A stretch of 64,000 nucleotides of DNA, taken from Oxynema aestuarii AP17. GTDB lineage: Bacteria > Cyanobacteriota > Cyanobacteriia > Cyanobacteriales > Laspinemataceae. The translations under genes were made by a program, and so were the position numbers. Positions 3,349 through 45,382 of the stretch are shown piece by piece. Below the pieces are notes generated by a model that worked only from the letters and a program-made list of their open reading frames with translations, was not told where the DNA came from and ran no database searches. Every line of letters begins with the position of its first letter. The first letter of the stretch is position 1. The stretch covers positions 5,941,299 to 6,005,298 of the forward strand of contig NZ_CP051167.1 of assembly GCF_012295525.1 (NCBI RefSeq), given 5' to 3'.

Positions 3349-3380
3349 AATGTAGGTTAAACGCAAAAAATAACTGTTAC

Positions 3381-5025: not shown

Positions 5026-5066
5026 ATACAGCTAGACAGATTGGTCTAGCTGTATTTTACGATTTT
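5026..5066 (+). terminator. Rho-independent terminator downstream of the response regulator.
   Basis: A perfect inverted repeat ATACAGCTAGAC-agattgg-GTCTAGCTGTAT is followed by TTTACGATTTT. Confidence 0.6.
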
Positions 5067-9473: not shown

Positions 9474-9618
9474 CGATCGTCGCGGATTCCCGCTTTTGTG
9501 GGAATCCATCACCTCGTTTATTCGCCAACCGATTCAGAACTCCTGTAGCGAACATCAATCATCTAGACGAGCGATCGAATCTAATAATCTAAAAAAATCT
9601 AAACTCTAAACGCCCAAC

Positions 9619-10644
9619 ATGTCTCGTTCAAAAGCCTTACAATCTTATATCCTCATTCGCTTATTGCTGGCGCCGTTGATGTTGTGGACGATTACCACCT
9701 TGGTTTTCCTCCTCCTACGGGCGACTCCCGGGGATCCCATCGATGCGATCCTCGGACCGAAAGCGTCGGACGAATTTAAAGAGCAAATGCGCGAACAGTT
9801 GGGATTGGGCGATCCGTTGTGGTTGCAATATGTCAATTACATGGGACGGTTGCTCAGTTTTGACCTGGGGACTTCGATTACCAGTCGCGGACAAAAGGTG
9901 TGGGAAATTATCGGCGACTTTTTCCCAGCGACGGTAGAATTGGCAGTGGTGAGTATGGCGATCGCCCTGATTGTCGGAATCGGGGTGGGGATGATGTCCG
10001 CTTCCCGTCCCAATACGGTTTGGGATGCGGGGGGACGCCTGTTCGGGATTTTGACTTATTCGATTCCGATGTTCTGGTTTGGGACGATCGTGCAATTGGT
10101 GTTTGCGGTTCAACTGCGTTGGTTTCCGTTGGGAACCCGCTATCCCACCGAGATTCCCGTTCCGAAAACGATCACCGGACTTTATACGATCGACAGTTTG
10201 CTGACGGGTCAGTTCGACCAATTTTTCGCCGCCTTGCACCATTTGGCGCTTCCCTGTCTGACCTTGGGAATTCTGATTAGCGGTATTTTCGAGCGCATTG
10301 TCCGGGTCAATCTCAAGCAAACATTGCAAGCGGACTATGTAGAAGCAGCACGGGCGCGCGGCATCCCGGAAGGTCGCATTTTAGTCGCCCACGCGCTCAA
10401 AAATGCCATGATTCCGGTGATTACGGTCATGGGATTGACTTTGGCGGCGCTCCTCGGCGGTGCGATTTTGACGGAAGTGACGTTTTCCTGGCCCGGATTG
10501 GCGAATCGACTGTACGAGGCGATTTCCCTGCGCGACTATCCGACGGTGCAGGGGATCGTGGTCTTTTTTGCGGCGATCGTGGTGTTGGCGAGTATTCTCA
10601 TCGATATTTTAAATGCGTATATCGACCCGCGCATTCGCTATTAA
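9619..10644 (+). CDS. ABC transporter permease, DppB/OppB type.
   Basis: It has multiple transmembrane segments and the EAA-like loop ...YVEAARARGIPEGRIL.... The C-terminus ends ...YIDPRIRY. Confidence 0.85.
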   Translation: MSRSKALQSYILIRLLLAPLMLWTITTLVFLLLRATPGDPIDAILGPKASDEFKEQMREQLGLGDPLWLQYVNYMGRLLSFDLGTSITSRGQKVWEIIGDFFPATVELAVVSMAIALIVGIGVGMMSASRPNTVWDAGGRLFGILTYSIPMFWFGTIVQLVFAVQLRWFPLGTRYPTEIPVPKTITGLYTIDSLLTGQFDQFFAALHHLALPCLTLGILISGIFERIVRVNLKQTLQADYVEAARARGIPEGRILVAHALKNAMIPVITVMGLTLAALLGGAILTEVTFSWPGLANRLYEAISLRDYPTVQGIVVFFAAIVVLASILIDILNAYIDPRIRY

Positions 10645-10653
10645 TTGATGGAG

Positions 10654-11460
10654 TTAACTATCGGGACGGGCGATCGTACTCAAGATTTGGTCGACGCGAT
10701 TCGCGGATTGGGTATTGCCTTGGAGTTCAAATAAATCCCGGGCATTTGTTAAAACTATTTGTGCTTCTTGCTCTTGACCTTTTTGATATAAAATAATGCC
10801 TAAATTGGCGTGAGCTTCGGCAAATTCAGGCTCGATCCGAATGGCATCGCGATAGGCGGCGATCGCGGCATCTTCTTCGCCTAAATTGACCCAAGCATTG
10901 CCCATGTTGTAATAAGCTTTGCTGTAGTTTGGCAAAATTTCGATCGCCCGTTTGTAGGCTTCGATCGCCTCGAAAAAGTTTTCATTTTTAGCCAGGGCAT
11001 TGCCTAAGTTGTAATGAGCGGCTGGCAATTGCGGATCGATTTGGATCGCCGTTTCATACGCTTCGATCGCGCGATCGATTTCTCCTCGATTGACAAAAAT
11101 AACGCCGGAATTGACGTGAGCTTCGGCTAAATTGGGATTGAGGCGGAGTGCTTTTCGATACTCTTCTAAAGCCCCTTCTAAGTCCCCTCGTTCTTGTAAG
11201 GTCGTGCCGAAGTTATAATGTTCTTCGGCTTCGTCGAGCTCGTTATTTTCGGGTTGTTGGGCGACGGTAGCGGGGAAATTCTTAAGTAACATTTCCCGAT
11301 CGCTTGTGGGGACGTGAGGCGGCCATTGTCTTTGAGAAAGAGGCGTCAAACGGGCGATCGCCGGAGTGGAAATCGCACAACTGAAAGCAAATATCGTGGC
11401 GGCGAACCAGTAAAATTGACGCAGCATTGGGTGGGATTTTTTATTGTCTATAAAGTTCAT
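10654..11460 (-). CDS. Tetratricopeptide repeat (TPR) protein with N-terminal signal/TM segment.
   Basis: There are about six tandem 34-aa repeats with the W-LG-Y / A-F-P pattern (AIEAYKRAIEILPNYSKAYYNMGNA...). Confidence 0.7.
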   Translation of the reverse strand: MNFIDNKKSHPMLRQFYWFAATIFAFSCAISTPAIARLTPLSQRQWPPHVPTSDREMLLKNFPATVAQQPENNELDEAEEHYNFGTTLQERGDLEGALEEYRKALRLNPNLAEAHVNSGVIFVNRGEIDRAIEAYETAIQIDPQLPAAHYNLGNALAKNENFFEAIEAYKRAIEILPNYSKAYYNMGNAWVNLGEEDAAIAAYRDAIRIEPEFAEAHANLGIILYQKGQEQEAQIVLTNARDLFELQGNTQSANRVDQILSTIARPDS

Positions 11461-11629
11461 TATTGTAGCATTTTTTAGTAAAAATTAAAACGTAGCTTTG
11501 GCGAGAAATGATTTTCTCCTTGAGTAAATTTATCGCCACAATTCAAGGGTTGAAAAGTGGCGACGATCGCCCTTATTCTCCCTTATAACCCCGGCGAGGC
11601 GATTGTCCTGGGCAGACGGTAAGCACAAA

Positions 11630-11689
11630 GCGCGAAGCCATGCCGTAGGCTATGGCGCACCCTCCGCGAAGCGCGAAGCCATGCCGTAG
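11630..11689. repeat. 19-bp direct repeat GCGCGAAGCCATGCCGTAG, two copies 22 bp apart, upstream of anmK.
   Basis: The copies at 11630-11648 and 11671-11689 are identical. An inverted GCCAT/ATGGC motif lies between them. Confidence 0.7.
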
Positions 11690-11891
11690 ACGAGATCGCG
11701 GCGATCGCGCGGTTTCGCTCAAAAACTAGCTTCAAAACTTATAAAAGCGACAAACCCTTTGAAACCATCTCGCGATAGAATTTTCACAGCAGCAATCTAG
11801 ACGATCGACGATCGACCCTACTCGAATCCATGACCGACCTTGCTTTCCCTTATCTTCTCGTTCGCGACGATCGCGAGGAACCCCAAACCGT

Positions 11892-13100
11892 ATGACCCGA
11901 GTCATTGGCGCCATTAGTGGCACGTCGGTGGACGGGATCGATGTTGCATTAGTAGAGATCGCGGGAACCGAACTCGATTTAGAAGTCAACTTACTCGCCG
12001 CTCGGACCCATCCCTATCCCCACGCCTTACAAGAGGAAATTTTAGCCGTTTGTGGGGGGAAACCGTTAACGATGGCGGCTTTGGCAGAACTCGACGATGC
12101 GATTGCGGGCGAATTCGCCCGGGCTGCCCTCTCCTTGCTCCCCCAACAGCCCCCCGTAGACCTGATCGGCTCTCACGGTCAGACCGTCTATCACCGACCG
12201 CCTGTCGGTTCCCGGGACAATGGCTCGCGCCGTCTCGGCTACAGTTTGCAACTGGGACGGGGGGAGGCGATCGCCCAGTTGACCGGAATCACCACAGTTT
12301 CTAACTTCCGGGCTGCAGATATTGCCGCAGGGGGGGAAGGCGCGCCCCTCGTCCCCAAAGTCGATCGGGCGTTGTTGGGCGATCGTCAGAAAACGCGCTG
12401 CATCCAAAACCTCGGCGGGATCGGCAACGTGGCATATTTGCCCCCGCGATCGGATCCCCACGAGACCCCGGAACCGATCCTCGGTTGGGATACCGGCCCG
12501 GCGAATAGCCTCTTAGATCTCGCCGTGCGGCGTTTGAGTCGGGGTCAACAAAGTTACGATCGCGGTGGCGCCTGGGCGGCCACCGGAACCCCCTGCGAAC
12601 CCCTGGTCGAACAGTGGTTGCAAGAACCGTTTTTCCAACAACCTCCGCCGAAGTCTACCGGACGCGAACTCTTCGGCCCGGACTATCTAGACCGATGTTG
12701 GCAAGAGGCGCAATCCTACGCTCTCTCCGACGAGGATTTCCTCGCTACCCTCGTCGAATTTACCGTCGCCTCGATTGTCGTCAATTACCGTGCGTTTCTT
12801 CCGGTTCAACCGGATGAGGTCTTGCTTTGTGGGGGCGGAAGTCGCAATCTGTATTTAAAACAACGCTTGCAAGCACGCTTGGCGGCGACGTCGAACCAAC
12901 CCGTCTCGGTGCTGACCACCGATGAGGTCGGTCTCAATGCGGATTTCAAAGAAGCGATCGCCTTCGCGGTTCTCGCCTACTGGCGGGTGCGAGGCATTCC
13001 GGGAAACCTCCCCGAATGTACTGGAGCCGAAACGCCCATGTTGCTGGGTGATATCCATCGGACCCCTCGGCGATCGCGTGCTAGCATAGAATGCCAGTAA
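11892..13100 (+). CDS. anmK: Anhydro-N-acetylmuramic acid kinase AnmK.
   Basis: The N-terminus [20 protein letters not shown] is the AnmK signature. The length is 402 aa. Confidence 0.85.
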
Positions 13101-13134
13101 CGGCAGTCAGTCGTGCAATTTAAGGAATTGTGCC

Positions 13135-13596
13135 GTGACTCACACCTTTTTATTAGAACCCGGTCGGTGGACTTTGGAAGGCACTTGGCTCGAACGAAAC
13201 GGAATGCTCGTGCCTGTCAAGGGTAAAACCTTGGTCGCCTGGTCGCGGGAAGATTGGTTTAATATGGTGACCAAGTTGATTTTTCCGGGCAGCGATCGCC
13301 ACGAAATTACACTACAGTACCGGGGTCATTTCGATTTAGGGGAGCGTCAGTATACTTTTGTCCTCCAACACAGCGATCTCGGTCGGGTCGAAGGGGAAGG
13401 CTGGATCGCCCCGGAGTCGATCGTCCAGCGTTTCTGGGTGCTCGGCGATCGCAAGCACCGCCGCAGTGGCTTTGAAACCCTCCACCGCCTCAGTCCGAAT
13501 ACCTACCATCATTCGAGCGGTCTGATGGCGGGGCATTACTTGGTCAGTGCGATGGAAGCCACCCTAGAACGGATTGCCACCGAACAAAACCAGTGA
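13135..13596 (+). CDS. Hypothetical protein.
   Basis: An ORF of 153 aa with coding-like composition. I recognise no family. Confidence 0.4.
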   Translation: MTHTFLLEPGRWTLEGTWLERNGMLVPVKGKTLVAWSREDWFNMVTKLIFPGSDRHEITLQYRGHFDLGERQYTFVLQHSDLGRVEGEGWIAPESIVQRFWVLGDRKHRRSGFETLHRLSPNTYHHSSGLMAGHYLVSAMEATLERIATEQNQ

Positions 13597-13701
13597 ACTG
13601 GGATCTTCGGTTCACTCCCATCGACGAATAAGGCGACTGAGTCCGGCGATCGTACCGTTTCAGTCGCCTTATTGGCGATCTTTAAAAATAACGCCGAATT
13701 T

Positions 13702-14583
13702 TTAATCTTGATGGGCCGGGAAGAAAATAATCGGTTCGCAACTGCGGCGCAGCAGTTCCCGGCGGAAGGAGGGCAGCCAGTCCCACAGATTGCTCAGGTT
13801 GTCTGCGGACACGGCGATCGCGCAAATATCCGACATCTGCGCCAATTCCAAAATATCGACGATTGGCTCGCCCAAGCGCACTTCCACATCGACTTGCAAG
13901 CCGAGGGCTTCGAGATCCGCTTTAATCGGGACGAGGGTTTCGTTCGCTTTACGCAATTGTTCGTCTTTGGGAATCTTATGCAGGACCCCCGCATCGACGA
14001 CCCAGGCTAGCAAACAGCGTTCTAGGGAGTTGGCGGGTCGATCTTTTGCGTAATACTTGAGCCGTTCCACCGTCTCGCTAGAGCGATCGCCCCCGTCGTA
14101 GGGAATCGCAATGTAACGCAATAAGTGTTGGCAACGTAAGGCCAATTCTTCGCTGGTCAACGCCGAAATTAACTCGGTCGGGAAGGTCATCAAGGGAATG
14201 CGCGTCCGTCCCGACAGCTCGATAGTCGTGCTACCAAACAGGTTTTCGCTGAGGGAATTGCGGTGGGACGTACCGAGGACGATTAAATCACTTTGGTACT
14301 TTTTGGCGATTTTGACAATTTTGTCGCTCGGTGGACCCGACAGCAATTCGACCGCGACTTCTACGCCCTCCGGCACGGTTTCGGGGATCGAACGGCTCAG
14401 GCGATCGCGTGCCCGCTCCATTTTTTCCGTATCTTCGCGAGGAATTTGACCTTTTGTCCACAAGGGAACGGCGTGTAGAAAAACTACTTGCTCGATCCCC
14501 CCTGCCGCCAAGTTGGGGAGGAAGTTCCCCAAACGATGCAGACCATCCGCAAAATCCGTACAAACTAAAAGCCGCCTAAACAT
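13702..14583 (-). CDS. Universal stress protein family protein (tandem Usp domains).
   Basis: Two UspA-like halves are present (LLVCTDFADG... and ...DLIVLGTSHRNSL...). The start is set at MFRRLL (ATG at 14583) rather than the longer ORF. Confidence 0.65.
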   Translation of the reverse strand: MFRRLLVCTDFADGLHRLGNFLPNLAAGGIEQVVFLHAVPLWTKGQIPREDTEKMERARDRLSRSIPETVPEGVEVAVELLSGPPSDKIVKIAKKYQSDLIVLGTSHRNSLSENLFGSTTIELSGRTRIPLMTFPTELISALTSEELALRCQHLLRYIAIPYDGGDRSSETVERLKYYAKDRPANSLERCLLAWVVDAGVLHKIPKDEQLRKANETLVPIKADLEALGLQVDVEVRLGEPIVDILELAQMSDICAIAVSADNLSNLWDWLPSFRRELLRRSCEPIIFFPAHQD

Positions 14584-15292
14584 TCTGTTTTGATTAAGAT
14601 TTAACTTTGAAGCTCTCAAATGCAGACATCGAGCGACGCCTGAAATCGCTGGGTCATGCCACGATAGGACTCGATTCGATCGCCGATCTCTTGTAGATCT
14701 AGGCGCGATCGGGGCGATTTGTTTCAAATTCTAGCACTTCTCATTGCCGCTCAGTCCGGCTCCGGTTCGGGCGATCGCCGTTCGTGGCGCTCTGATTACA
14801 TCGGCGATCGCCCCGGCTTTCAGCGTCCGATCGTCACTCAAAACACTTAATTTGCCGATCTTTTGAGGGCAAAAACCCTCAGTTCTCGCCGTTTTTAATC
14901 CCTGTGGCAGCTTATTGGTTTTATCAGATATTTTTAGAACAACTCTCGTTGGCTTCGATCGCCGCGATCTTCACCGACTCGCGACTCGATTCTCTCAAAA
15001 AGATCGACGGTCGATCGCCAGGTGCCCGTCCCACGTCTCGTTCTCCTTTTGAAGGGCGATCGGAGAACAATAGCTATCGCAACAGTCAAATTGAGCCCTG
15101 AGAAGGAGCGATACTCGACACCCGATCTTCGTTAACTCTCTCGGCAGTATGCGCCGTGCTTCTGACGCGATCGCGGGGAGTTAAACGCCCCGACATCCCC
15201 AGCTTTAGGTTCTCTCAAACGGAGAACGGAGCAAGAGAAGGAGGTCGTTGACTCGGTTGACCCACGGAAGGGATGACAACCCGTAAACCGGG

Positions 15293-15472
15293 TTATAAGT
15301 CCCACTCTTGTTTGAGGAAATGCCGATACATATTTTCGCGCATCAACATTTGCTTGTACAGTTCTTTGAGGAAGTATTGGGCTTGATCGCGGCTCATGCG
15401 ATCGACTTGATCCTCAAAGCTGCGGACGTTAAATTCTTGTTCTAAGGAGAGTTCTAAAGGTACTTGTTCCAT
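15293..15472 (-). CDS. nblA: Phycobilisome degradation protein NblA.
   Basis: The roughly 60-aa product MEQVPLELSLEQEFNVRSFEDQVDRMSRDQAQYFLKELYKQMLMRENMYRHFLKQEWDL matches the NblA family pattern (ELSLEQ.F..RSF...V..MS.DQA...L..LY.QM..RE..Y...L...W.L). Confidence 0.75.
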   Translation of the reverse strand: MEQVPLELSLEQEFNVRSFEDQVDRMSRDQAQYFLKELYKQMLMRENMYRHFLKQEWDL

Positions 15473-16080
15473 TGGTAACCTCCAAGTTCTATCGGTCGGT
15501 TTTGACAAGCGCTATCCAGCCGGATTGACTGGATTTGTCTCTTGTTTCGGGAGTCCTTCTTAGGGGTCAGGATTCCCTGTTGCCCCGGTGGCAGTTTCCC
15601 GATGTTACAAATTATAACAATCGTTTGACAAGTTGCCCACTTTAGGGGGGTAGTCTTGTGAATAAAAGATGACACGAATCGCCGAAAAGTTTCCGAACGG
15701 AGGGGTTCTGATGTCCTTTTATCAACTCGACCCGAGTAAAAATGCTCGGATTGAACGGAACGGGAGTGAATCCCGGGGTCAAGGGTTAAGAATCCCGGAC
15801 AAAACCGGGAAATCGAACGGCGATTCCGTCGGGATCGGTGCGAGAAGTGAAAGGGTTAGGGTGTGGGAAAAAAATAAACGCGCGGCGATCGCCCGACAGA
15901 CAATTTAAGCGATCGGGGCGAACCGGATCTCCCTACGAAAGCACGACGATCCGAGTCGAATGCAGCGTTTTCGACTCGGATCGAGGGGAGAGGCGATCGG
16001 CGCCCGTCAATGACAAAGTAGCCTGTCTCCAGCCCTAAAATTGGGGGGAATACGACCGTGGGGGGGTAGCGAAATTCCGT

Positions 16081-16818
16081 TTAAGTGACATTTTCGAGGG
16101 TAATGGCGATCGCGGTAATATTATCCCGCCCACCTTTATCTTTAGCGGCGCTGACGAGATTTTTAACCGCTTGGTCTCCGGCGCGGATCGATTTGAGGAT
16201 CGATTCGATCTTTTTATCCGAAAGTTCTTCCGTCAAGCCATCACTGCACAACAACAGGCGATCGCCCGGTTGTACGTCCAACCTCTGCACCTCAATTTCC
16301 TGAATGTCCTGTCTGCCCAAACATTGAGATAACACGTGGCGCCAGGGGTGAGTCCGCACCTCATCCGAGGTCAAATGTCCCGCCTTGAGGGCGCGCGCCA
16401 CCCAGGTATGATCTTCGGTAATCTGTTCGAGGTTCGCCCCACGCAGGCGGTAGAGACGGGAATCGCCGATATGGGAGCACCACGGGCCGTCTTCGTCCCG
16501 GAAAATCACGGCGACGGCAGTAGTTCCCATATCCGACCGTTCGGGATGGTCTAGCTGATCCTGGATAATGGCTTCGTTCGCTTTTAAAAAAGCCGCTTTC
16601 AATAACTCTTCCGAACTTTCCGGCGAGTCCCAATGCTCGATTAAATAGGTTTGAATCGTTTCAGTTGCAATTCGCGACGCTTCTTGACCCCCAGCATGAC
16701 CGCCCATACCGTCGGCGACGATAAAAAATCGTCCTTCGGAGTCGTCGATGTAATATGCATCTTGATTAACGGCGCGAACGAGTCCCGTATCCGTGAGACC
16801 CGCAAAATATCGTTTCAT
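16081..16818 (-). CDS. PP2C-family Ser/Thr protein phosphatase.
   Basis: The sequences GLTDTGLVRAVNQDAYY...FIVADGMGGHAGG are PP2C motifs 1-2, followed by CSDGLTE. Confidence 0.85.
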   Translation of the reverse strand: MKRYFAGLTDTGLVRAVNQDAYYIDDSEGRFFIVADGMGGHAGGQEASRIATETIQTYLIEHWDSPESSEELLKAAFLKANEAIIQDQLDHPERSDMGTTAVAVIFRDEDGPWCSHIGDSRLYRLRGANLEQITEDHTWVARALKAGHLTSDEVRTHPWRHVLSQCLGRQDIQEIEVQRLDVQPGDRLLLCSDGLTEELSDKKIESILKSIRAGDQAVKNLVSAAKDKGGRDNITAIAITLENVT

Positions 16819-16914
16819 AAGTCAACTGTAGGCGTGAAAATACGTGAAAACTAACCAAAATACGCCACGCGCAGCTAAAACGTGCGATCGCGGTGCGCCC
16901 GAGGGAAACCCCCT

Positions 16915-18732
16915 CTAAAACATCTTATCGGAGCGCTCGACACTCATGAGTAAGCGAATCAAGCTCCCCGCCAGGGCGATCGCCACTAAAGCTACCACCA
17001 ACGCCAGCCAAATTTTATCGTTGACTAACAAAATTGTCGCCGACAGGGTAAACGCACTGACCAACAAAGCTAAATTCGTTCCCATTTGGATGCTACCGAG
17101 GCGACGCAGCACGCGATCGGTTTCGATCGAGCGTACCCGTACCCGGACGTCACCGCGTTCGAGTTTTTCGATCGTATCTTCGATGCGACCGGGTAAACCC
17201 AGGGCCGTACTACTCACTTGAGCTGCTTGGCGTCCGAGTTCGTCGAAAAAGGTATTGCGATCGCTGGAATTGGCGTTACTCATAATTTGCATTGCAAAAG
17301 GTTTGGCAACCTCCATAAAGTTGAAGTCCGGATCTAACCCTTTTCCGACCCCTTCTAACGTGGAAAAGGCGCGCATGACAAACGTAAAAGTGGCGGGAAA
17401 CCGGAAAGGTTGGTCGTAGGCGATCGCGTAGAGATCGTCGCTAATCGCCGTCACCGACTGTTCCTCGAACGGCTTATCCATCAAGTGATCGAGAATGTAT
17501 TGAATCGATCGCCTCACCGGCCCCATATCGTCCATCGGCGAGAGGGCTTCCAATTCCACCAACGCCGTCACCACATCTTCGGCATTTTTCTTGGCAATCC
17601 CAAAAAACAAGTCGAGCATTTTCACGCGGATATCCCGGCGAACCCGTCCCATCATGCCGAAATCGTAGAAAATTAACGCCCCTTCCGGACTGACCGCCAC
17701 ATTACCGGGATGGGGGTCGGCGTGGAAAAAGCCGTGATTGAGTAACTGGCGTAAATAGGCTTCGGCGCCAAGTTGGGCGAGGACTTTGCGATCGAGTCCC
17801 GCCGCTTCGAGGGCTTCGTAGTGGCTGATTTTAATCCCGGGAACGTATTCGAGGGTGAGGACGCGGGGGGACGTGTAGCGCCAGTAAACGCGCGGAACCC
17901 TCACCCAGTCGCGATCGCGGAAATTGCGCCGGAAGGTGTCGGCGTTTTGTCCCTCGTTGAGATAGTCGATTTCTTCGTAGAGGATTTTATAACATTCGTC
18001 GTAAATGCCGATCCAATCGCGGCCCCGTCCCCATTTCGGGTGGTTATCGAAATACCGGACCACCGTTCGCGCGATCGCCAGATCGATTTGAAACAAGCGC
18101 TTCAGTCCGGGACGCTGCACCTTGACGACCACTTCTTCCCCGGAATGCAACTGCGCCTTGTGAACTTGCCCCAAACTGGCTGCGGCGAGGGGGATGGGCT
18201 CGAAGGCGCGAAACAGTTCGCCGACCTGGCGCCCGAAATCTTGCTCGACAATCGCTTCGGCTTGTTCGTAGCTAAACGCCGGAACTCGGTCTTGCAGTTT
18301 GGACAGTTCCTCGACATATTCCGCCGGGAATAAATCCGATCGCGTCGAGAACAATTGACCCAATTTGATAAAGGTCGGACCGAGTTGCAACATCGACTCG
18401 CGAATCCAAATCGCCTGTCGCTTGCGCCGTCGCGCCCGTTTTTCCTCGCTGTAACCGCCGCGATAGGTCCACGGTTTGCTGTCGTACCACAACTCGAACA
18501 GAAAGCGCAAAACGAACGCCCAAATTTCCAGGCGTCGCCGATTGCGCGAGTAGTTCGGGCGATTCCAGCGATACGCCCCTTGTTGATGTACGCTCAGTTG
18601 TATTTGTTCTATGGGTTCGATTTGAGATGAACTCTCTCCACTGACCGAACGCGCATTCTCTCGGGAATGATGCTGCCGGGAATGCTGGCGGTCGAGGGAA
18701 TCGTCAGAGATAGCAGACACGCGGGTTTCCAA
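16915..18732 (-). CDS. ABC1/UbiB/AarF-family atypical kinase.
   Basis: The segment AAASLGQVHKAQLHSGEEVVVKVQRPGL is the ABC1 kinase signature. C-terminal transmembrane helices follow. Confidence 0.85.
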   Translation of the reverse strand: METRVSAISDDSLDRQHSRQHHSRENARSVSGESSSQIEPIEQIQLSVHQQGAYRWNRPNYSRNRRRLEIWAFVLRFLFELWYDSKPWTYRGGYSEEKRARRRKRQAIWIRESMLQLGPTFIKLGQLFSTRSDLFPAEYVEELSKLQDRVPAFSYEQAEAIVEQDFGRQVGELFRAFEPIPLAAASLGQVHKAQLHSGEEVVVKVQRPGLKRLFQIDLAIARTVVRYFDNHPKWGRGRDWIGIYDECYKILYEEIDYLNEGQNADTFRRNFRDRDWVRVPRVYWRYTSPRVLTLEYVPGIKISHYEALEAAGLDRKVLAQLGAEAYLRQLLNHGFFHADPHPGNVAVSPEGALIFYDFGMMGRVRRDIRVKMLDLFFGIAKKNAEDVVTALVELEALSPMDDMGPVRRSIQYILDHLMDKPFEEQSVTAISDDLYAIAYDQPFRFPATFTFVMRAFSTLEGVGKGLDPDFNFMEVAKPFAMQIMSNANSSDRNTFFDELGRQAAQVSSTALGLPGRIEDTIEKLERGDVRVRVRSIETDRVLRRLGSIQMGTNLALLVSAFTLSATILLVNDKIWLALVVALVAIALAGSLIRLLMSVERSDKMF

Positions 18733-18852
18733 CTTGATTGATTCGGGCGATCGGAATGGATACGGAGAAATGGAGCAATGCGGGGAGTTCGCGGTTCAGT
18801 TGTCGGGAAAATTCAGGGATAGACGTCTTCCTACATGGACAGGAAAACAACC

Positions 18853-19185
18853 CTACTGCGATCGACTGCGATAGCGTTGCAATTCGGCTCTGACCCGAGC
18901 AATTTCAGCGCGTAATTCGTCGATGGTCGCTTGCAAGTCGCCTTCGGGTTCGTTGGCGAAGTTAAAGTCGCCTTCAGCAGAGTTAGCACTCCCTTGGGTC
19001 TGCGCCGCTTGCTGTTGGGCGCGTTGCATGACCTCTTCCATGAAGGCGTGCAAGCGCTCTCGTTGTTCGGCATCGAATTTCCCTAAATCGCTGAGGGCTT
19101 GGGTCAGCGTTTTTTCTACTTGTTCGCCAATGGCTTGAGCCAGCGCTCGACCGACGAAAAAGGCGTTGACTTCAGGTTTACTCAT
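18853..19185 (-). CDS. Conserved hypothetical small protein.
   Basis: An ORF of 110 aa with a helical, charged C-terminus. I recognise no family. Confidence 0.45.
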   Translation of the reverse strand: MSKPEVNAFFVGRALAQAIGEQVEKTLTQALSDLGKFDAEQRERLHAFMEEVMQRAQQQAAQTQGSANSAEGDFNFANEPEGDLQATIDELRAEIARVRAELQRYRSRSQ

Positions 19186-19283
19186 GCTGACGAAAGCTCC
19201 CTACATGCATCTCGCCAAAGATTATAACTTGGTTGCTCGATCTGATGTCGGCTTGGCGACGCAGAAGCGCGGATCGATCGCCT

Positions 19284-19697
19284 CTAAAACAGTTTGATGC
19301 CAATTTGTCCGTTAATTCCGCGAATGCTGTGATACCCGGCCCCGAAAAAAATATTGCCTTCCGGGAAGACCTGGACGCCTCCAGAAAAGGCAATGTCGCG
19401 ATCGTCGGAGTCGGGATCGTCGTAGAGTCCGACGCCGACATAACCGGATACTTGACTGACAAATGGCGGGTTGATGAATTTCATCACATCGACGCCGACG
19501 GTACTGTCATTGGTCAAGCCGAGTTCGGCGCCAAATCCGAGGGCGCGAACGCCGACGGAAAAGGTCGGTTCGCTGTCTTCAATACCGACGGATACCCAGG
19601 GACGGGGGACGAGTTGGGCGATCGCCTGTCGCTCGGATCCGAGCAGGATCGCGGCGATCGCCGCGATCGCCATACTGGTGTTGGCGAGGGATTTCAT
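19284..19697 (-). CDS. Small secreted, possibly outer-membrane beta-barrel protein.
   Basis: The signal peptide is MKSLANTSMAIAAIAAILLG. The protein is Gly-rich with alternating residues and ends ...IGIKLF, an aromatic terminal residue as in the OMP beta-signal. Confidence 0.5.
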   Translation of the reverse strand: MKSLANTSMAIAAIAAILLGSERQAIAQLVPRPWVSVGIEDSEPTFSVGVRALGFGAELGLTNDSTVGVDVMKFINPPFVSQVSGYVGVGLYDDPDSDDRDIAFSGGVQVFPEGNIFFGAGYHSIRGINGQIGIKLF

Positions 19698-19700
19698 TGG

Positions 19701-19727
19701 GGAGTTTGGAGTTTAGAGTTTAGATGG
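19701..19727. repeat. Tandem heptamer repeat (GGAGTTT/GAGTTTA, reverse complement TCTAAAC) directly upstream of the start of the 19284..19697 gene.
   Basis: ggagtttggagtttagagtttagatgg. Confidence 0.6.
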
Positions 19728-19763
19728 AGCAATATTATACTTTTTGACCGTTAAAATATCTTT

Positions 19764-20948
19764 TTAACGATCGCCCGCCCACTGCAGCAAGAACTTGGCG
19801 GCGCGATCGCAGACCCCGACTTCCCCCAAGGCTTCCTTCATGCGGGCGTAATCGGCGAACATTGCCTCGCGGGTTTCGCGATCGCGCAATAACTGCAGCC
19901 CTTCCCGGGCGATATTTTCCGGCGTCGCTTCTTCCTGCAACAACTCCGGAACCACCGATTTCATCAACACCAAATTCGGCGGCGACATGAACGGAATCGA
20001 GAAGCGCAACAGGTGGCGGGCGATCCACGCCGTAAGCGGACTGACGCGGTAAAGCACCACTTGAGGCACCCCGGCGAGGGCAATTTCGAGGTTGACCGTA
20101 CCGGATTTGGTCAGGGCCAAATCGGCGCAGGCGATCGCCCACGGCGTGTCCTCGCGGTCTACGACGGTCGCCTGCAAGCCGTAGCGGGCGATCGCCCCTT
20201 CGATCGCCTCCCGGTACGTCCCCAGAGACAGGGGAACGTAAAAGCGCACTTCGGGTAGGGCCGCTTGAATCCGACGCGCCGCCTCGAACAGGGGGGGTAG
20301 CAAGTAGCGGATTTCTTGAATTCGAGATGCTGGTAATAAGACGATCGCGGGGGTTTCCGGGGCGATCGCCCATTTTTCCCGGGCGCGATCGCGTGCGGGC
20401 CATTGGGACTGGCGATCGAGCAAGGGATGGCCCACCCAAGTCACCGAAGCGCCTTTCTCCCGGTAATAGCGGGCTTCTTCGGGGAAAATCGCCAAAATGC
20501 GATCGCACAGACGGACGATCTCGCTGGTGGTGCGATCGCCCAGAGACCAGACCCACTCTTGCGGCGCGATATAGTAAATCACCTTAACTTGGGGTAAATG
20601 CCGCTTCACAAAATTGGCGATCGCCAAATTCGGCCCCATATAATCGATCGCCACGACCAGATCCGGCGGATTCTCCCTCAAATACCGTTTGGCGCGCCGT
20701 TGAATCTGCAACGTCGGCCACACAAACGGCAGCGACTCCCACAATCCCACCGATCCGATCGCCGTCGTATCGGCGAGCAATTCGGCACCCGCGCGCGCCA
20801 TTTGCGCCCCGCCTAACGCCACGATTTGCAAGTCGATCCCCTGCCTCGCCGCCTGCTGGAATAACGACTCGACCAGGATCGCCCCTTGTAAATCCCCGGA
20901 GACCTCTCCGGTACAAATAAATATCCGCACCGCGCGCCCTCGATCCAT
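19764..20948 (-). CDS. lpxB: Lipid-A-disaccharide synthase LpxB.
   Basis: The N-terminus RIFICTGEVSGDLQGA is GT19-family. It is the last gene of the lpx cluster. Confidence 0.85.
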   Translation of the reverse strand: MDRGRAVRIFICTGEVSGDLQGAILVESLFQQAARQGIDLQIVALGGAQMARAGAELLADTTAIGSVGLWESLPFVWPTLQIQRRAKRYLRENPPDLVVAIDYMGPNLAIANFVKRHLPQVKVIYYIAPQEWVWSLGDRTTSEIVRLCDRILAIFPEEARYYREKGASVTWVGHPLLDRQSQWPARDRAREKWAIAPETPAIVLLPASRIQEIRYLLPPLFEAARRIQAALPEVRFYVPLSLGTYREAIEGAIARYGLQATVVDREDTPWAIACADLALTKSGTVNLEIALAGVPQVVLYRVSPLTAWIARHLLRFSIPFMSPPNLVLMKSVVPELLQEEATPENIAREGLQLLRDRETREAMFADYARMKEALGEVGVCDRAAKFLLQWAGDR

Positions 20949-20950
20949 TC

Positions 20951-21766
20951 CTACGAACGCGACCCCTTCGAGCCGGAGGTCGGACCGCGCCGTCCTTCGC
21001 CGAGAGAAGCGACTAAAAAGCGCTGCAGGTGGGCGACATATTCGTTCTCCGGGAGTAAATCCAACTGTTCGAGAGCGTGCTGTAACGTGTCGCCACTGCG
21101 GTAAAGGATGCGAAATGCCTTTTTTAGCAATTGGTGGTCTTCTCGGGTCAATGCCGCCCGTTTTAAGCCCACCAGATTGAGCGATCGCACCCGGCAGGGA
21201 TTGCCTTCGACGAGCATGTACGGCGGCACGTCCCGGTCTACCCGACTCATGCCGCCGATCATCGCCAACCGACCGATATGCACGAATTGGTGAATCCCCA
21301 AAACCCCGCCGAGAACGGCGCGATCCTCAATTTGGACGTGACCCGCCAGGGCGACATTATTGGCAATCACCACGCGATCGGCGATGCGACAGTTGTGGGC
21401 AACATGAACGTAAGCCATCAGCAAATTATCATTGCCGATCGCCGTCACTTCGCCTTCTCCCGTCGCCCGATTGATCGTCACGTATTCCCGAATCGTATTG
21501 CCGTCGCCGATTTTGGTCAGACTCGGCGCGCCGTCGTACTTTAAATCTTGAGGTTCCAGACCGATCGCCGCCCCCGGATAAATGCGATTGGCTGCCCCGA
21601 TTTCCGTCTGACCGTCCAACACGACATGCGCGCCGATCTTCGTTCCCGGACCGACCTTGACTTGCGCTGCGATCGTCGCGTAAGGACCGACCTCAACAGT
21701 GGGATGAATCTGGGCATCCGGATGGATGACCGCACTCGGGTGAATCAGTGTCCTCATAATTTTCAA
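20951..21766 (-). CDS. lpxA: Acyl-ACP--UDP-GlcNAc O-acyltransferase LpxA.
   Basis: It has hexapeptide repeats (IHPSAVIHPDAQIHPTVEVGPYATI...) and is 271 aa long. Confidence 0.9.
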   Translation of the reverse strand: MKIMRTLIHPSAVIHPDAQIHPTVEVGPYATIAAQVKVGPGTKIGAHVVLDGQTEIGAANRIYPGAAIGLEPQDLKYDGAPSLTKIGDGNTIREYVTINRATGEGEVTAIGNDNLLMAYVHVAHNCRIADRVVIANNVALAGHVQIEDRAVLGGVLGIHQFVHIGRLAMIGGMSRVDRDVPPYMLVEGNPCRVRSLNLVGLKRAALTREDHQLLKKAFRILYRSGDTLQHALEQLDLLPENEYVAHLQRFLVASLGEGRRGPTSGSKGSRS

Positions 21767-41023: not shown

Positions 41024-41258
41024 CTAAGTTGACATCCTCTGCGGCCTCAAGGCGCCCAGATCCCCAGACCTCACGATCTGAGTTTCTGTTTCGTAGCACC
41101 AGCATAAGCGAGATTTACGCTCTTCGGGTCTTACGATCGCGACCCAGATTGACACCGCTTGCCCGGCGGCCAAGACATTGATAGCAGCATTGACATCGCG
41201 ATCGGGGTTGCAACTACATTCAGTTGGATAGAAACGATATCGGAACGCCTTTTTAGTC
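41024..41258 (-). pseudogene. Internally deleted IS200/IS605-family tnpB relic (miniature element).
   Basis: The 78-aa ORF fuses a TnpB N-terminus MTKKAFRYRFYPT directly to a TnpB C-terminal RuvC-III/Zn-finger remnant ECSCNPDRDVNAAINVLAAG. The roughly 350 aa normally between them are missing. Confidence 0.65.
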
Positions 41259-41628
41259 ATGCTCACATTATGGCGCGGACAATGTAAAGCTGCCCTACAA
41301 GGCTTGCCCTGAGCTGAGCCGAAGGGGCGGGGTTTCAGAACCAGGAGTTTTGATGATAACAGAAGCCGTGTAGATTTTAGGTTTCGGGGGATTGAACCGC
41401 TCAATTTACGCGGCCTACACCACCAGCCAAATCAAGGATTATAGCTGGAGTACGGGTCGGTTCTTGACCGTTGATTGTATCAAGATCGCCGCCAACTCCT
41501 ATCGCAACAACCGTTTTCAGCTATAATTTGCACTTTAAAGCTTAGAGCGTCCGGACTTCAAAATCTTCTCCCGATCGCTGCTTAATTCTGTGTTCTGTAG
41601 GGACGGCTGAATCCACACCAGTTTTGAT

Positions 41629-42144: not shown

Positions 42145-42308
42145 GAGGATTAAGAACAATCTTAAGACTGTCGTATCGAACGCTACGACCCCGTTAGCGC
42201 AGCGACGCCGACCGGCGTTAGGGGAGGCTGAGGTTGTCGGACTGGGCTGATTTCCGTGTCCCTCGTCCCCAACGCCTCTTCCGGATTGAGACTATACGCG
42301 ATCGCCTT

Positions 42309-43349
42309 ATGACTTTTTCGACTAAAAAGAGCGCCGCTTTACACGAGAGCTTGTCTAATTTGAAAACTCATCTCCTCGGTTTAGCTCAAAGCGAAACCTT
42401 TTTCTACATCCTCAAGCGATTATTACAAGCGCTCTTGACGCTGTTTCTCGCCTCCGCTTTGAGTTTTTTTATCATTCAATTAGCCCCTGGAGATTATTTA
42501 GATAACCTCCGTCAAAATCCCCAAATTTCCAAAGAAACTCTCGACCAACTTCAAGCTCGATTCGGCTTGGACCGATCGCCGATCGCTCAATATTTTCTCT
42601 GGCTGAAACAAGTCCTGACCCAAGGCGATTTTGGCACCAGTTTCGTCTACCGTCGCCCCGTCGCCGAACTCCTCTGGGAACGCATCCCCAATACCCTCTT
42701 ACTCTCGATTTCATCCCTCCTGCTCACTTGGGCGATCGCCCTCCCCCTCGGTATCGTCGGCGCCGTCAATCAAAATCGCTGGCTCGATCGCGTCCTGCGC
42801 GTCCTCAGCTATACCGGACAAGGGTTTCCCAGCTTCATCACCGCCTTACTCCTCCTCCTGTTCGCCCAAATCACCTCCCCCCTCTTCCCCGTCGGCGACA
42901 TGCGCAGCGTCTACCACGACCAACTCACCCCATTGGGTCAAATCGTCGATATCGCTTGGCACATGATTTTACCGACTCTCGCCCTCAGTATCACCAGTTT
43001 TGCAGGATTGCAGCGCATCACGCGCGGCGAATTACTCGACGTTCTGCGCCAAGAGTACATCCAAACTGCCCGCGCTAAAGGTTTACCAGAAAATCGCGTG
43101 ATCTACGTCCATGCTTTACGCAATGCGGTCAATCCTTTAATCACTCTCTTGGGTTTTGAGTTTGCCAGTTTGCTCGGCGGTGCATTTATTGCTGAATTTT
43201 TCTTTAACTGGCCCGGGTTGGGGCGCTTGATTTTACAAGCGGTTCAATCCCAAGATATTTATTTAGTTATGGCCAGTTTGATGATGGGAGGCATGATGTT
43301 AATTGTCGGTAATTTATTGGCTGATTTCAGAAGTGTTGAACGGTACTAA
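42309..43349 (+). CDS. ABC transporter permease, DppB/OppB type, 3' end replaced by IS sequence.
   Basis: It has multiple TM segments and the EAA loop YIQTARAKGLPENRVI. The last seven codons (RSVERY*) are encoded by the left end of the IS4-family element. Confidence 0.8.
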   Translation: MTFSTKKSAALHESLSNLKTHLLGLAQSETFFYILKRLLQALLTLFLASALSFFIIQLAPGDYLDNLRQNPQISKETLDQLQARFGLDRSPIAQYFLWLKQVLTQGDFGTSFVYRRPVAELLWERIPNTLLLSISSLLLTWAIALPLGIVGAVNQNRWLDRVLRVLSYTGQGFPSFITALLLLLFAQITSPLFPVGDMRSVYHDQLTPLGQIVDIAWHMILPTLALSITSFAGLQRITRGELLDVLRQEYIQTARAKGLPENRVIYVHALRNAVNPLITLLGFEFASLLGGAFIAEFFFNWPGLGRLILQAVQSQDIYLVMASLMMGGMMLIVGNLLADFRSVERY

Positions 43350-44503
43350 TGAATTAGCATAAAATAGATACAAGAATCCTATGAAAAGCTGATTTCAGTG
43401 ATGGAAAACTAGCTCTCTAAACCAGTGGACATAACTAATCTTTTCACACATAAAAGCCTGTAAATATCGCAACTTATCTAATAATGATGAACCCCATTCT
43501 TGGTTAATTTTTACTAATTTTAAAATTAGATATCCGATTAAACAGCAATAAATCTGGATTTCCATTCCATTCACATTTTTCGTGATAAATTTATCCAACT
43601 TTAAGTGCATTTTCAAGAACTTCCACAGCAATTCAATTTGCCAGCGTAGTCGATAAAATTCACCAATTTCTTCGTTACTTATTCCTCCTTCTCCTGTCTC
43701 TGGCAAATTCGTCACTAAGCGAAATTCAGTTTTTTCTTCCCGGTCGCAAAACATTACTACTCTTCCTTGTACTTGTGCTGTTCCTGTCCCCATTAAATAT
43801 TCCCCATTCTCTAACATTTCTAATTTAATGTTTTTTCGGATTCTCAAGACGAAGTAGCGATTTTTTTGAGCTTGAAGTTGGGCAATTCTTTCTAAGCTGC
43901 AAAAACCTCTATCCATTACGGCGACTCCGTTTTCCGGCGTGGCTTCTATCGTTTCATTTCCATATTTGCTATCGTGTCCTTGACCCAAATGAATTGATAT
44001 TCCTCCTGGGTTTCCTGTCACTAAGTTAATGCCACTAAACAGTTTCAATTGGTGATATCCTTGATGCCATAAGAGTTTACTCGTCAAAGTGATAATGGTT
44101 GAATCTAAAGGAAATATCATCAACTCTTTATCTGAATTTTGGGATTTTTTGGCTACTTCTTTTTTCAATTCATCCCACAATCGATGAAAAACTTCTGGAC
44201 TACGAGTTTTACTGGCTTTTGAGAAGGTTGATATATCTACGGATTCTCCGCGAATATTTAGTCTTTTAAACAAACTTCTCATCGTTGTTTGACTCTGGTC
44301 TAAAATGAAATTTAGCCAAATTGAGACAAACTTGAAAGTGTCTAGTACTGGATAATCGTCTTGGGGCAGATGACTTAGATGTTTTTGGAGAATTTCAGGA
44401 AAGTTTGATACAATCATTGTTAAGTATTTATCGAAATATTGCCCCTATTTTACTTGATTAGGGACTTTTTTTGTCAAATTTCTCTTAACATTCAACACTT
44501 CTG
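43328..44503. mobile_element. IS4-family insertion sequence (1176 bp) with 13-bp perfect terminal inverted repeats and 9-bp target-site duplication.
   Basis: The left IR is CAGAAGTGTTGAA (43328-43340). The right IR is TTCAACACTTCTG (44491-44503). The TSD GGCTGATTT lies at 43319-43327 and 44504-44512. The interior is AT-rich. Confidence 0.8.
43395..44417 (-). CDS. IS4-family DDE transposase.
   Basis: The 340-aa product has the C-terminal Y-x2-R-x3-E-x6-K motif (YRLRWQIELLWKFLK) typical of IS4-type transposases. Confidence 0.85.
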   Translation of the reverse strand: MIVSNFPEILQKHLSHLPQDDYPVLDTFKFVSIWLNFILDQSQTTMRSLFKRLNIRGESVDISTFSKASKTRSPEVFHRLWDELKKEVAKKSQNSDKELMIFPLDSTIITLTSKLLWHQGYHQLKLFSGINLVTGNPGGISIHLGQGHDSKYGNETIEATPENGVAVMDRGFCSLERIAQLQAQKNRYFVLRIRKNIKLEMLENGEYLMGTGTAQVQGRVVMFCDREEKTEFRLVTNLPETGEGGISNEEIGEFYRLRWQIELLWKFLKMHLKLDKFITKNVNGMEIQIYCCLIGYLILKLVKINQEWGSSLLDKLRYLQAFMCEKISYVHWFRELVFHH

Positions 44504-44504
44504 G

Positions 44505-44561
44505 GCTGATTTATTACTCAAAGCCGTCGATCCTCGCATTAAGTTGAGCAATCTTAAATGA
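44505..44561 (+). other. Displaced native 3' end of the permease gene (ADLLLKAVDPRIKLSNLK*).
   Basis: It reads in frame from the right TSD copy. The DPRI motif matches the C-terminus of the paralogous permease (...YIDPRIRY). Confidence 0.7.
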
Positions 44562-44798
44562 AATTTGAGGTGAGGACAGTTAAAAGCTAAAAGGGTTGAT
44601 TTTTCAAGTTGAAACAACAAGAAAAATGATGATTTTTTGAACAATAAAACATTGCTGCCTGTAGCCATTTTTAAAGGACCATATAGCAATCGTAAATCGG
44701 TTGTAAAATTTAGGGCTTTCTGGGGACAGGGAACTGCCGTTTTCCTAAGGGGATTTGGCGACTTTCCCGGGTCGATCTCAGATTCAATTGAGGATTGC

Positions 44799-44822
44799 TA
44801 TAAAATCTAAAATCTAAAATTC
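44799..44822. repeat. Tandem heptamer repeat (CTAAAAT x3) directly upstream of the start codon at 44829.
   Basis: ctataaaatctaaaatctaaaattcc. Confidence 0.7.
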
Positions 44823-44828
44823 CCAAAA

Positions 44829-45125
44829 ATGTTATCGCAAACTTATTATTTAGTTCGTTCTAAAGTAGACGGGCAATATTTAACCGCCAATCCCGATCGC
44901 CCGTCAGAACAAGTCAATAAGATAAGTTATCTGCTATTATTTTCAGAACATTTTGACGCTTTAACTTATCTGAATAAATATGGGGAAGATTTGCGCGATC
45001 GCCTCGCCGTAGAATCGATCCCCGGTTCGCAACTTCCCGGACTGCTCAAACGTTGGAGTTATTCGGGAATTGCGATCGTTCGCGATCCACTTTTACCTCA
45101 AGTTGAGTTTTTAGAAATGACTTGA
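44829..45125 (+). CDS. Small conserved hypothetical protein.
   Basis: A 98-aa ORF preceded by the heptamer repeats. Confidence 0.45.
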   Translation: MLSQTYYLVRSKVDGQYLTANPDRPSEQVNKISYLLLFSEHFDALTYLNKYGEDLRDRLAVESIPGSQLPGLLKRWSYSGIAIVRDPLLPQVEFLEMT

Positions 45126-45184
45126 ATGTTCAAATATCAGCGATTTTAAATAATTTATACAGCATTTTCCTCTGTCATTTAAGA

Positions 45185-45330
45185 CATTTAGAGCCCCCTA
45201 AATCTCCCTTAAAAATCCCCCTAAATCCCCCTTAAAAAGGGGGACTTTCCTCGTTCCCCCCGAAATCCCCCCTTCGCCCCCCTTTCAAAGGGGGGTTGGG
45301 GGGATTGGGGGATCGGCACTGTTGTACCTC
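45185..45330. repeat. C5-6/G5-6 nested-palindrome repeat cluster (MITE-like).
   Basis: There are successive CCCCC(C)-AT-GGGGG(G) hairpins, for example CCCCCTTAAAAAGGGGG and AATCCCCCC-ttcg-CCCCCCTTT-c-AAAGGGGGG-tt-GGGGGGATT. The same architecture recurs inside tnpB at 60468-60513. Confidence 0.7.
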
Positions 45331-45382
45331 ATCAGACGCCCGAGTGCTGTAAATCAATCAGGGAGCAAGATGCTCGCCCTAG

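What the first reader, a model, noticed from the sequence alone, without database searches (positions are those of the whole stretch)
43319..44561. Recent IS4-family insertion splits the 3' end of an OppB-type permease gene; the displaced native C-terminus is still readable.
Perfect 13-bp terminal inverted repeats (CAGAAGTGTTGAA / TTCAACACTTCTG) are flanked by a perfect 9-bp direct duplication, GGCTGATTT. Reading in frame from the downstream TSD copy gives ADLLLKAVDPRIKLSNLK*, which restores a DPRI-containing C-terminus like the paralogous permease at 9619..10644 (...IDPRIRY*). The permease as it now stands ends in seven IS-encoded residues (RSVERY*). Intact TSD and IRs imply a recent event. 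A permease with a substituted tail may or may not be functional.
Basis: seen in the sequence. Interest (0 to 1): 0.55.

Follow-up and report, generated by a model that had tools for sequence, protein, structure and literature searches.

The report
IS4Sa-type insertion clipping a permease gene
A 1176-bp jumping gene of a well-known cyanobacterial type (IS4Sa/ISY203-like) has recently landed in the last 16 codons of a peptide/nickel-type ABC permease gene of Oxynema aestuarii AP17; this is real and precisely proven, but it is an ordinary event.

Summary
The element at 43328..44503 is 1176 bp long. It has perfect 13-bp terminal inverted repeats and a perfect 9-bp target duplication (GGCTGATTT). 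It carries one intact 340-aa DDE transposase on the minus strand, which scores above the NCBIfam IS4 cut-off and has a complete YREK motif.

The window comes from Oxynema aestuarii AP17. Four contigs from near-identical relatives (99.3-99.8% over 21 kb where measured) carry the exact predicted empty site with one copy of GGCTGATTT. Their permease is 100% identical to the "repaired" protein. More distant Oxynema relatives and 52 cyanobacterial orthologues are also uninterrupted, and seven positions of the displaced tail (L342, K343, D346, P347, R348, I349, L351) are invariant in them.

An independent 1176-bp metagenome contig equals the element base for base. At least four other AP17 protein accessions carry the same transposase. 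The closest named relative is IS4Sa (ISY203 group) of Synechocystis PCC 6803. It shares 64% amino-acid identity, an identical 13-bp left terminus, a length of 1174 bp and a 9-bp duplication.

The insertion replaces 16 native residues, namely the end of the last transmembrane helix plus DPRI, with FRSVERY. Loss of function is likely but untested. This is a new member of a known kind, and interest is low.

The parts
42309..43349 (+). OppB/DppB-type ABC permease gene as it now stands. It encodes a 346-aa chimeric product ending ...LLAD-FRSVERY*.
   Evidence: Pfam PF00528 and PF19300 match. The exact 346-aa product equals QIZ73266.1 / WP_168571412.1, 'ABC transporter permease [Oxynema aestuarii]'. 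This identifies the window as strain AP17.
43319..43327 (.). Left copy of the 9-bp target-site duplication, GGCTGATTT.
   Evidence: Relatives with the empty site have a single copy.
43328..44503 (-). Complete 1176-bp IS4-family, IS4Sa-subgroup insertion sequence. The transposase is on the minus strand.
   Evidence: The blastn blocks of L008 and L009 break exactly at 43327 and 44504, with a 9-nt overlap in the query. Contig L007 (1176 bp) is the exact reverse complement of this span. GC is 35% against 52% for the window. It holds no HIP1 site, where 3.1 are expected.
43328..43340 (.). Terminal inverted repeat at the window-left end, CAGAAGTGTTGAA. This is the end distal to the transposase start.
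   Evidence: The same terminus is conserved in related elements of many cyanobacteria and in IS4Sa on pSYSX.
43395..44417 (-). Intact 340-aa DDE transposase gene. Catalytic residues are D105, D169 and E262. The YREK motif lies at 255-269.
   Evidence: PF01609 E=1.8e-25. NF033592 transpos_IS4_1 scores 187.9 bits against a cut-off of 115. It is 64% identical over 99% of its length to 'IS4-like element IS4Sa family transposase'.
44491..44503 (.). Terminal inverted repeat at the window-right end, TTCAACACTTCTG.
44504..44512 (.). Right copy of the 9-bp target-site duplication, GGCTGATTT.
44513..44561 (+). Displaced native 3' end of the permease gene: 16 codons (LLLKAVDPRIKLSNLK) plus the stop. It is no longer joined to the gene.
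   Evidence: The translation is. It is identical to the C-terminus of the uninterrupted P0249, P0001 and P0251. Seven of its positions are invariant in 52 orthologues.

Best explanation
A single autonomous insertion sequence of the IS4 family, IS4Sa subgroup (the ISY203 group of cyanobacteria), transposed into codon 340 of a 355-codon OppB/DppB-type ABC permease gene in the lineage of Oxynema aestuarii AP17. Staggered 9-bp cleavage of the target and gap repair duplicated GGCTGATTT. The gene now reads seven codons into the element and stops. The last roughly six residues of the final transmembrane helix and the invariant DPRI tail are replaced by FRSVERY. The native 3' end lies stranded 1.2 kb downstream. 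The event is recent and derived, and the element is still multicopy and probably active in this genome. Shown here: the element's anatomy, its family, the empty-site alleles, the polarity of the event, and the conservation of the lost tail. Inferred: cut-and-paste transposition as in other IS4-family members, and impairment of the permease (my estimate is about 70% likely). It is also possible that the jump happened during the strain's long laboratory subculture.
For: Anatomy: there are perfect 13-bp inverted repeats, a perfect 9-bp duplication and a 1176-bp body with one intact 340-aa ORF.

Family: PF01609 matches, and NF033592 is above its curated cut-off. D105, D169, E262 and Y-(2)-R-(3)-E-(6)-K are present, the latter in 126 of 127 homologues. 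Size, CA------T ends and a 9-bp duplication fit the IS4Sa row of Table 1 in PMC2266710. The transposase is 64% identical over 99% of its length to the RefSeq 'IS4-like element IS4Sa family transposase'. The pSYSX copy is 1174 bp with an identical left terminus and a 9-bp duplication, GGTCAGATG. Relatives in many cyanobacterial genomes share the CAGAAGTGTTGAAT ends, lengths of 1165-1184 bp and 9-bp duplications.

Empty site: L008 and L009 match the window at 99.3-99.8% over 21 kb, in two blocks that overlap by exactly the 9-nt target. The predicted 76-nt junction is exact in L008-L011. P0249 equals the repaired protein. The outgroups L001-L006 and Oxynema sp. CENA135 (L012), about 94-98% identical, are also uninterrupted.

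Activity: L007 equals the element at 100% and comes from the same sample as the empty-site contig L009. At least four other AP17 accessions carry the identical transposase.

Effect: the tail positions are invariant in 52 orthologues. The tail motif is shared with solved DppB and OppB structures. The predicted last helix spans 317-345 and is cut after D339. TM3-TM6 line the translocation pathway in E. coli DppB (PMC12136057).
Against: Nothing contradicts the insertion itself. Several points remain weak. Copy number in AP17 rests on accession numbers of an identical protein, not on inspected DNA. Exact scans of two public collections for the IS end found nothing, so no second copy with flanks was examined. 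The functional consequence is inferred from conservation and from a moderate-confidence model (mean pLDDT 64.6). NCBI annotates the chimeric product as an ordinary ABC transporter permease. A seven-residue substitute tail might still complete the helix.
Confidence: 0.96

Rival explanations
1. The insertion is ancestral, and the relatives lost the element by precise excision that restored the gene.
For: Precise excision leaves exactly one copy of the target, which is what the empty sites show.
Against: Three successively more distant lineages are all empty: J007/L008/L009 at about 99.7%, the L001 group at about 95-97%, and Oxynema sp. CENA135 at about 96%. All 52 orthologues from other cyanobacteria are intact. 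Both duplication copies carry the window lineage's own wobble base (GCT), whereas the outgroups have GCC or GCG. The element is 100% identical to another copy. Several independent precise excisions are far less parsimonious than one insertion.
Confidence: 0.02
2. The junction is an assembly artefact: a repeat was wrongly placed in the long-read assembly and the gene is intact in the organism.
For: The element is multicopy, and repeats are the usual source of misassembly.
Against: A misplaced repeat would not create a perfect 9-bp duplication of the local target exactly abutting both inverted repeats. The assembly is a single circular PacBio contig from reads averaging about 6 kb, far longer than the element (PMC7595944).
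Confidence: 0.01
3. The permease with the substituted tail is still functional, so the insertion is effectively neutral: a tolerated 3'-end insertion rather than a knock-out.
For: Only 16 of 355 residues are replaced. All six predicted transmembrane helices are present apart from the last turn or two. The EAA coupling region is untouched. NCBI's pipeline does not flag the protein.
Against: The lost segment contains seven positions invariant in 52 orthologues of 71-80% identity. It also contains a (D/N)P(R/K)I motif shared with E. coli DppB and OppB at about 30% identity. Such conservation implies a structural or functional requirement.
Confidence: 0.3

Closest known systems
IS4Sa (ISY203 group) of Synechocystis sp. 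PCC 6803; IS4 family, IS4Sa subgroup
   Same: Both have a single-ORF DDE transposase of about 338-340 aa with the YREK motif. The transposases are 64% identical over 99% of the length. The 13-bp left terminus CAGAAGTGTTGAA is identical, the lengths are 1174 and 1176 bp, and both make a 9-bp target duplication. Copies of ISY203 differ between very closely related laboratory substrains (PMC4060947), just as this copy differs between 99.7%-identical genomes.
   Different: At 64% protein identity it is a distinct element by the usual ISfinder naming practice (my own knowledge; ISfinder was not queried). The host is Oxynema (Oscillatoriales). The right terminus differs from that of IS4Sa, CAGAAGTGTTGAAT against CAGAATCGTTGAAT.
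IS10 and IS50 (Tn10 and Tn5), the mechanistically studied IS4-family members
   Same: They share the DDE plus YREK transposase, 9-bp target duplications and short terminal inverted repeats. By family inference they share non-replicative cut-and-paste transposition (PMC2266710).
   Different: IS10 and IS50 have 5'-CT/CW ends and form separate subgroups. NF033591 and other IS4 models score far below their cut-offs here. No mechanism was tested for this element.
E. coli DppB and OppB and M. tuberculosis OppB (PDB 8z1v, 8z21, 8j5q), the solved relatives of the interrupted gene
   Same: The restored protein aligns end to end with them (E = 5e-51 to 8e-46). The alignment includes the C-terminal NLLxDLLY..(D/N)P(R/K)IR segment that the insertion removes.
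   Different: No NCBIfam equivalog cut-off is reached; the best is Opp2B at 274 bits against 350, so the substrate is unassigned. The gene stands alone next to an apt-like gene rather than in an opp/dpp operon.

Membership tests
IS4 family (insertion sequences) | A single transposase ORF without a frameshift, carrying a DDE catalytic domain. | tested here: met
   One uninterrupted 340-aa ORF. PF01609 E=1.8e-25. D105, D169 and E262 identified.
IS4 family (insertion sequences) | The Y-(2)-R-(3)-E-(6)-K signature, including the DDE glutamate (PMC2266710). | tested here: met
   YRLRWQIELLWKFLK at residues 255-269. The motif is present in 126 of 127 homologues. The definition was read.
IS4 family (insertion sequences) | The curated NCBIfam IS4 model is passed. 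| tested here: met
   NF033592 transpos_IS4_1 scores 187.9 bits against a cut-off of 115. The IS1634, IS701, IS5 and IS982 models all fall far below their cut-offs.
IS4 family (insertion sequences) | Terminal inverted repeats and a target duplication of about 8-13 bp. | tested here: met
   13 of 13 (16 of 18) inverted repeats and a perfect 9-bp duplication. The duplication is confirmed against empty sites.
IS4 family (insertion sequences) | Non-replicative cut-and-paste transposition. | not testable with these tools
   Inferred from the family only.
IS4Sa subgroup of the IS4 family | Size 1150-1750 bp, ends CA------T, YREK present, direct repeats of 8-10 bp (Table 1 of PMC2266710). | tested here: met
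   The element is 1176 bp. Its ends read CAGAAGTGT, with T at position 9. The duplication is 9 bp.
IS4Sa subgroup of the IS4 family | The transposase groups with IS4Sa itself. | tested here: met
   64% identity over 99% of the length to WP_010872287.1, 'IS4-like element IS4Sa family transposase'. This is the best named hit among plasmid records. The 13-bp terminus is identical. No formal tree was built.
IS4Sa itself (same element or isoform) | Near-identity to the reference element. The usual practice is above about 95% amino-acid or 90% nucleotide identity (my own knowledge). | tested here: not met
   Only 64% amino-acid identity, so this is a distinct IS of the same subgroup.
OppB/DppB/NikB-type ABC importer permease (peptide/nickel family) | BPD_transp_1 core plus the BPD_transp_1_N N-terminal domain. 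| tested here: met
   PF00528 E=6.5e-40 and PF19300 E=1.9e-10. End-to-end alignment to solved DppB and OppB.
OppB/DppB/NikB-type ABC importer permease (peptide/nickel family) | Assignment to a specific equivalog (OppB, DppB, NikB, GsiC and others). | tested here: not met
   All NCBIfam equivalog scores are below their cut-offs. The best is Opp2B at 274.3 against 350. The substrate is left open.
OppB/DppB/NikB-type ABC importer permease (peptide/nickel family) | The conserved C-terminal ...DLL(x)K..DPRI tail after the last transmembrane helix. | tested here: not met
   The tail is absent from the present 346-aa product, which ends in FRSVERY.

The most novel reading that the evidence does not exclude
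The jump happened during the years of fortnightly laboratory subculture of AP17, as part of an ongoing burst of this low-GC, HIP1-free and probably recently acquired IS. This would parallel the ISY203 copies that distinguish Synechocystis 6803 substrains. On this reading the sequenced 'type' genome carries culture-born lesions, and loss of this transporter may even be favoured in peptide-free ASN-III medium.
Probability: 0.3. Interest if true: 0.25.

Novelty: new member of a known kind. Interest (0 to 1): 0.13.

Why it matters
The main value is for annotation and strain bookkeeping. WP_168571412.1 / QIZ73266.1 is deposited as an ordinary ABC transporter permease. It is in fact an IS-truncated chimera whose intact form is known from near-identical genomes. 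The case gives a fully documented filled-site and empty-site pair for an IS4Sa-type element. It shows that the element is mobile within a species whose sampled members are about 99.7% identical at this locus. It also warns that the reference genome of O. aestuarii may differ from wild populations through IS activity. It opens no new biological question.

Tried and rejected
Exact scans for the 28-nt left end of the element found nothing in genome contigs or metagenome contigs. No second copy with flanks could therefore be inspected. The source genome is evidently not in those collections.

Look-ups of the chimeric permease and of the NCBI 339-aa transposase in the gene-position index found nothing on record.

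A protein-based scan of metagenome contigs gave only relatives of 76% identity or less. It added nothing on copies of this element.

The promoter and terminator scan of 43200-44900 gave 6 promoter-like sites against 4.8 expected and 1 terminator-like site against 1.6. There is thus no evidence for an outward promoter or a polar effect.

A target-site consensus from 29 duplications of related elements showed only weak biases: T at position 3 in 18 of 29 and C at position 9 in 14 of 29. I do not claim a preference.

The AlphaFold model is only moderate (mean pLDDT 64.6). I used it solely to place the end of the last helix and ran no fold search.

I considered and rejected several alternatives. 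A non-autonomous MITE is excluded because the transposase is intact. IS5, IS701, IS1634 and IS982 membership is excluded because their models score far below cut-off and the duplication is 9 bp. A natural alternative C-terminus is excluded because no orthologue has it.

Full report
**Observation.** Re-reading 42200-44900 confirms every coordinate in the finding.
- The left target duplication GGCTGATTT lies at 43319-43327 and the left inverted repeat CAGAAGTGTTGAA at 43328-43340.
- Its exact reverse complement lies at 44491-44503, followed by GGCTGATTT again at 44504-44512.
- The element is therefore 1176 bp long.
- The repeat finder extends the inverted repeats imperfectly, to 37 nt at 70%.
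- The 13-mer occurs only at these two places in the 64-kb window, against 0.08 expected.
- Inside the element lies a single 340-aa ORF on the minus strand, at 43395-44417.
- The permease ORF now ends ...LLADFRSVERY* at 43349.
- Translating from the downstream duplication copy gives ADLLLKAVDPRIKLSNLK*.
- The paralogue at 9619-10644 ends ...IDPRIRY* and is 31% identical to the repaired permease.

**What the element is.**
- The ORF matches Pfam DDE_Tnp_1 with E=1.8e-25.
- It passes NCBIfam NF033592 (IS4 family transposase) at 187.9 bits against a cut-off of 115. Models for IS1634, IS701, IS5 and IS982 score far below theirs.
- The catalytic residues are D105, D169 and E262.
- The family-defining Y-(2)-R-(3)-E-(6)-K signature is present at residues 255-269, and in 126 of 127 homologues retrieved.
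- Table 1 of De Palmenaer et al. 2008 (PMC2266710) gives the IS4Sa subgroup a size of 1150-1750 bp, ends CA------T, YREK present and direct repeats of 8-10 bp. All four features are met.
- The best named relative is the 'IS4-like element IS4Sa family transposase' of the Synechocystis PCC 6803 plasmids, at 64% identity over 99% of the length.
- The copy on plasmid pSYSX is 1174 bp. It begins with the identical 13 bases CAGAAGTGTTGAA and is flanked by a 9-bp duplication, GGTCAGATG.
- A scan of species-representative genomes found 290 relatives, almost all in cyanobacteria.
- In the 70 of those loci I could analyse, the ends CAGAAGTGTTGAAT, lengths of 1165-1184 bp and 9-bp duplications recur. Apparent 7-bp cases arose because my script extended the repeat outwards.

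**Source and empty site.**
- The chimeric 346-aa product is identical to QIZ73266.1 / WP_168571412.1 of Oxynema aestuarii AP17. A protein with an IS-encoded tail can only come from this locus, so the window is AP17. That genome is CP051167, a single circular PacBio contig of 6,357,750 bp (PMC7595944).
- The same protein cluster holds 355-aa uninterrupted forms.
- P0249 (RMH76127.1, 'Cyanobacteria bacterium J007') is 100% identical to the repaired protein.
- Its contigs L008 (a 6.31-Mb JGI contig) and L009 (82 kb) match the window at 99.3-99.8% over 21 kb. The match falls in exactly two blocks, query 1-11019 to window ..43327 and query 11011-21068 to window 44504... These overlap by the nine bases of the target.
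- The 76-nt junction predicted by joining 43327 to 44513 is found exactly in four contigs, L008-L011.
- More distant relatives are also uninterrupted, with a single GGC(C/G)GATTT. These are L001-L006 and Oxynema sp. CENA135 (L012), at about 94-98% identity.
- The insertion is therefore derived and confined to AP17 among everything sampled. The chimeric protein is on record from only one contig.

**Activity.**
- Contig L007 is 1176 bp and is the exact reverse complement of 43328-44503 with no mismatch.
- L007 comes from JGI sample 3300014822, the same sample as the empty-site contig L009. That population therefore carries the identical element elsewhere but not in the permease.
- A contig that equals a repeat is what assemblers produce for a multicopy element.
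- In AP17 the identical transposase carries at least four other accession numbers: QIZ73550, 73583, 73761 and 73833. NCBI calls it from the second codon, giving 339 aa.
- The element has 35% GC against 52% for the window.
- It contains no HIP1 (GCGATCGC) site, where about 3 would be expected at the window's density. This fits a recent arrival in this genome.

**Consequence for the permease.**
- The gene is an OppB/DppB-type ABC importer permease with PF00528 and PF19300.
- It reaches no NCBIfam equivalog cut-off, so the substrate is open.
- In 52 orthologues of 71-80% identity, L342, K343, D346, P347, R348, I349 and L351 are invariant and L340 and L341 nearly so. All of these lie in the displaced segment.
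- The segment also aligns with the NLLxDLLY..(D/N)P(R/K)IR end of the solved E. coli DppB and OppB structures.
- An AlphaFold model of the intact protein places the last helix at 317-345, so the cut after D339 removes its last turns and the DPRI motif. Overall model confidence is moderate (mean pLDDT 64.6), with 72-78 over residues 301-340.
- In E. coli DppB, TM3-TM6 line the translocation pathway (PMC12136057).
- I infer that function is probably impaired (about 70%), but this is not shown.
- The promoter and terminator scan gives no support for polar or promoter effects.
- The 98-aa gene downstream is separated from the native stop by 267 bp in all relatives.

**Timing.** AP17 has been subcultured every 15-21 days since its isolation. 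ISY203/IS4Sa copies are known to differ between laboratory substrains of Synechocystis 6803 (PMC4060947). A culture-born insertion is therefore plausible, but it cannot be tested here.

**Verdict.** This is a textbook recent insertion of an IS4Sa-type element. It is a distinct, apparently unnamed member of a known subgroup, sitting in the 3' end of a conserved permease gene. Its practical value is an annotation correction. Its scientific interest is low.

Noticed in passing
window 41024-41404 (minus strand); compare L001 4155-5030: This is a decayed TnpB (IS200/IS605 OrfB) remnant. The 126-aa ORF starts with a TnpB-like FRYRFYPT and ends with NPDRDVNAAINVLAAG, but has no Pfam hit. The L001 group of relatives keeps a 291-aa ORF with a weak HTH_OrfB_IS605 hit. 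The window lacks about 630 bp relative to L001 here.
   Followed up: partly
L001 7882-9606 and L002 2921-4645; corresponds to window 45126-45382: The more distant relatives carry a complete IS200/IS605 element (Y1_Tnp of 131 aa plus a 428-aa OrfB/TnpB). It sits between the 98-aa gene and the Crp-like regulator gene. It is absent from the window, L008, L009 and L012. This is a second insertion polymorphism within 2 kb of the first.
   Followed up: partly
window 43328-44503 versus the whole window: The IS has 35% GC against 52% for the window. It contains none of the window's 169 HIP1 (GCGATCGC) sites, where about 3.1 are expected. This suggests a recent foreign origin.
   Followed up: partly
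window 17823, 37279, 42245, 43319, 44504: The 9-mer GGCTGATTT occurs five times, against 0.77 expected. The three extra sites have no IS ends beside them. The one at 42245 lies just upstream of the permease start. This is probably coincidence or codon usage.
   Followed up: no
window 42309-43349 and 43395-44417 (public annotation): NCBI lists the IS-truncated chimera as a plain 'ABC transporter permease' (WP_168571412.1). It calls the transposase one codon short (339 aa, MVSN...), which implies an ATT start although ATG lies immediately upstream.
   Followed up: partly
L007, L020, L044, L065, L071 (whole contigs of 1166-1181 bp): Many short-read assemblies contain a contig that is exactly one copy of an IS4Sa-type element from end to end. 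One has a stated coverage of 7437x (L071). This is a handy independent read-out of IS boundaries and multicopy status.
   Followed up: partly
window 7782-10644: An SBP_bac_5 solute-binding protein gene is followed by a second OppB-type permease gene. No OppC-type partner or ATPase gene is adjacent; the next gene is a TPR protein on the other strand. Both B-type permeases in this window are thus separated from the rest of their transporters.
   Followed up: no
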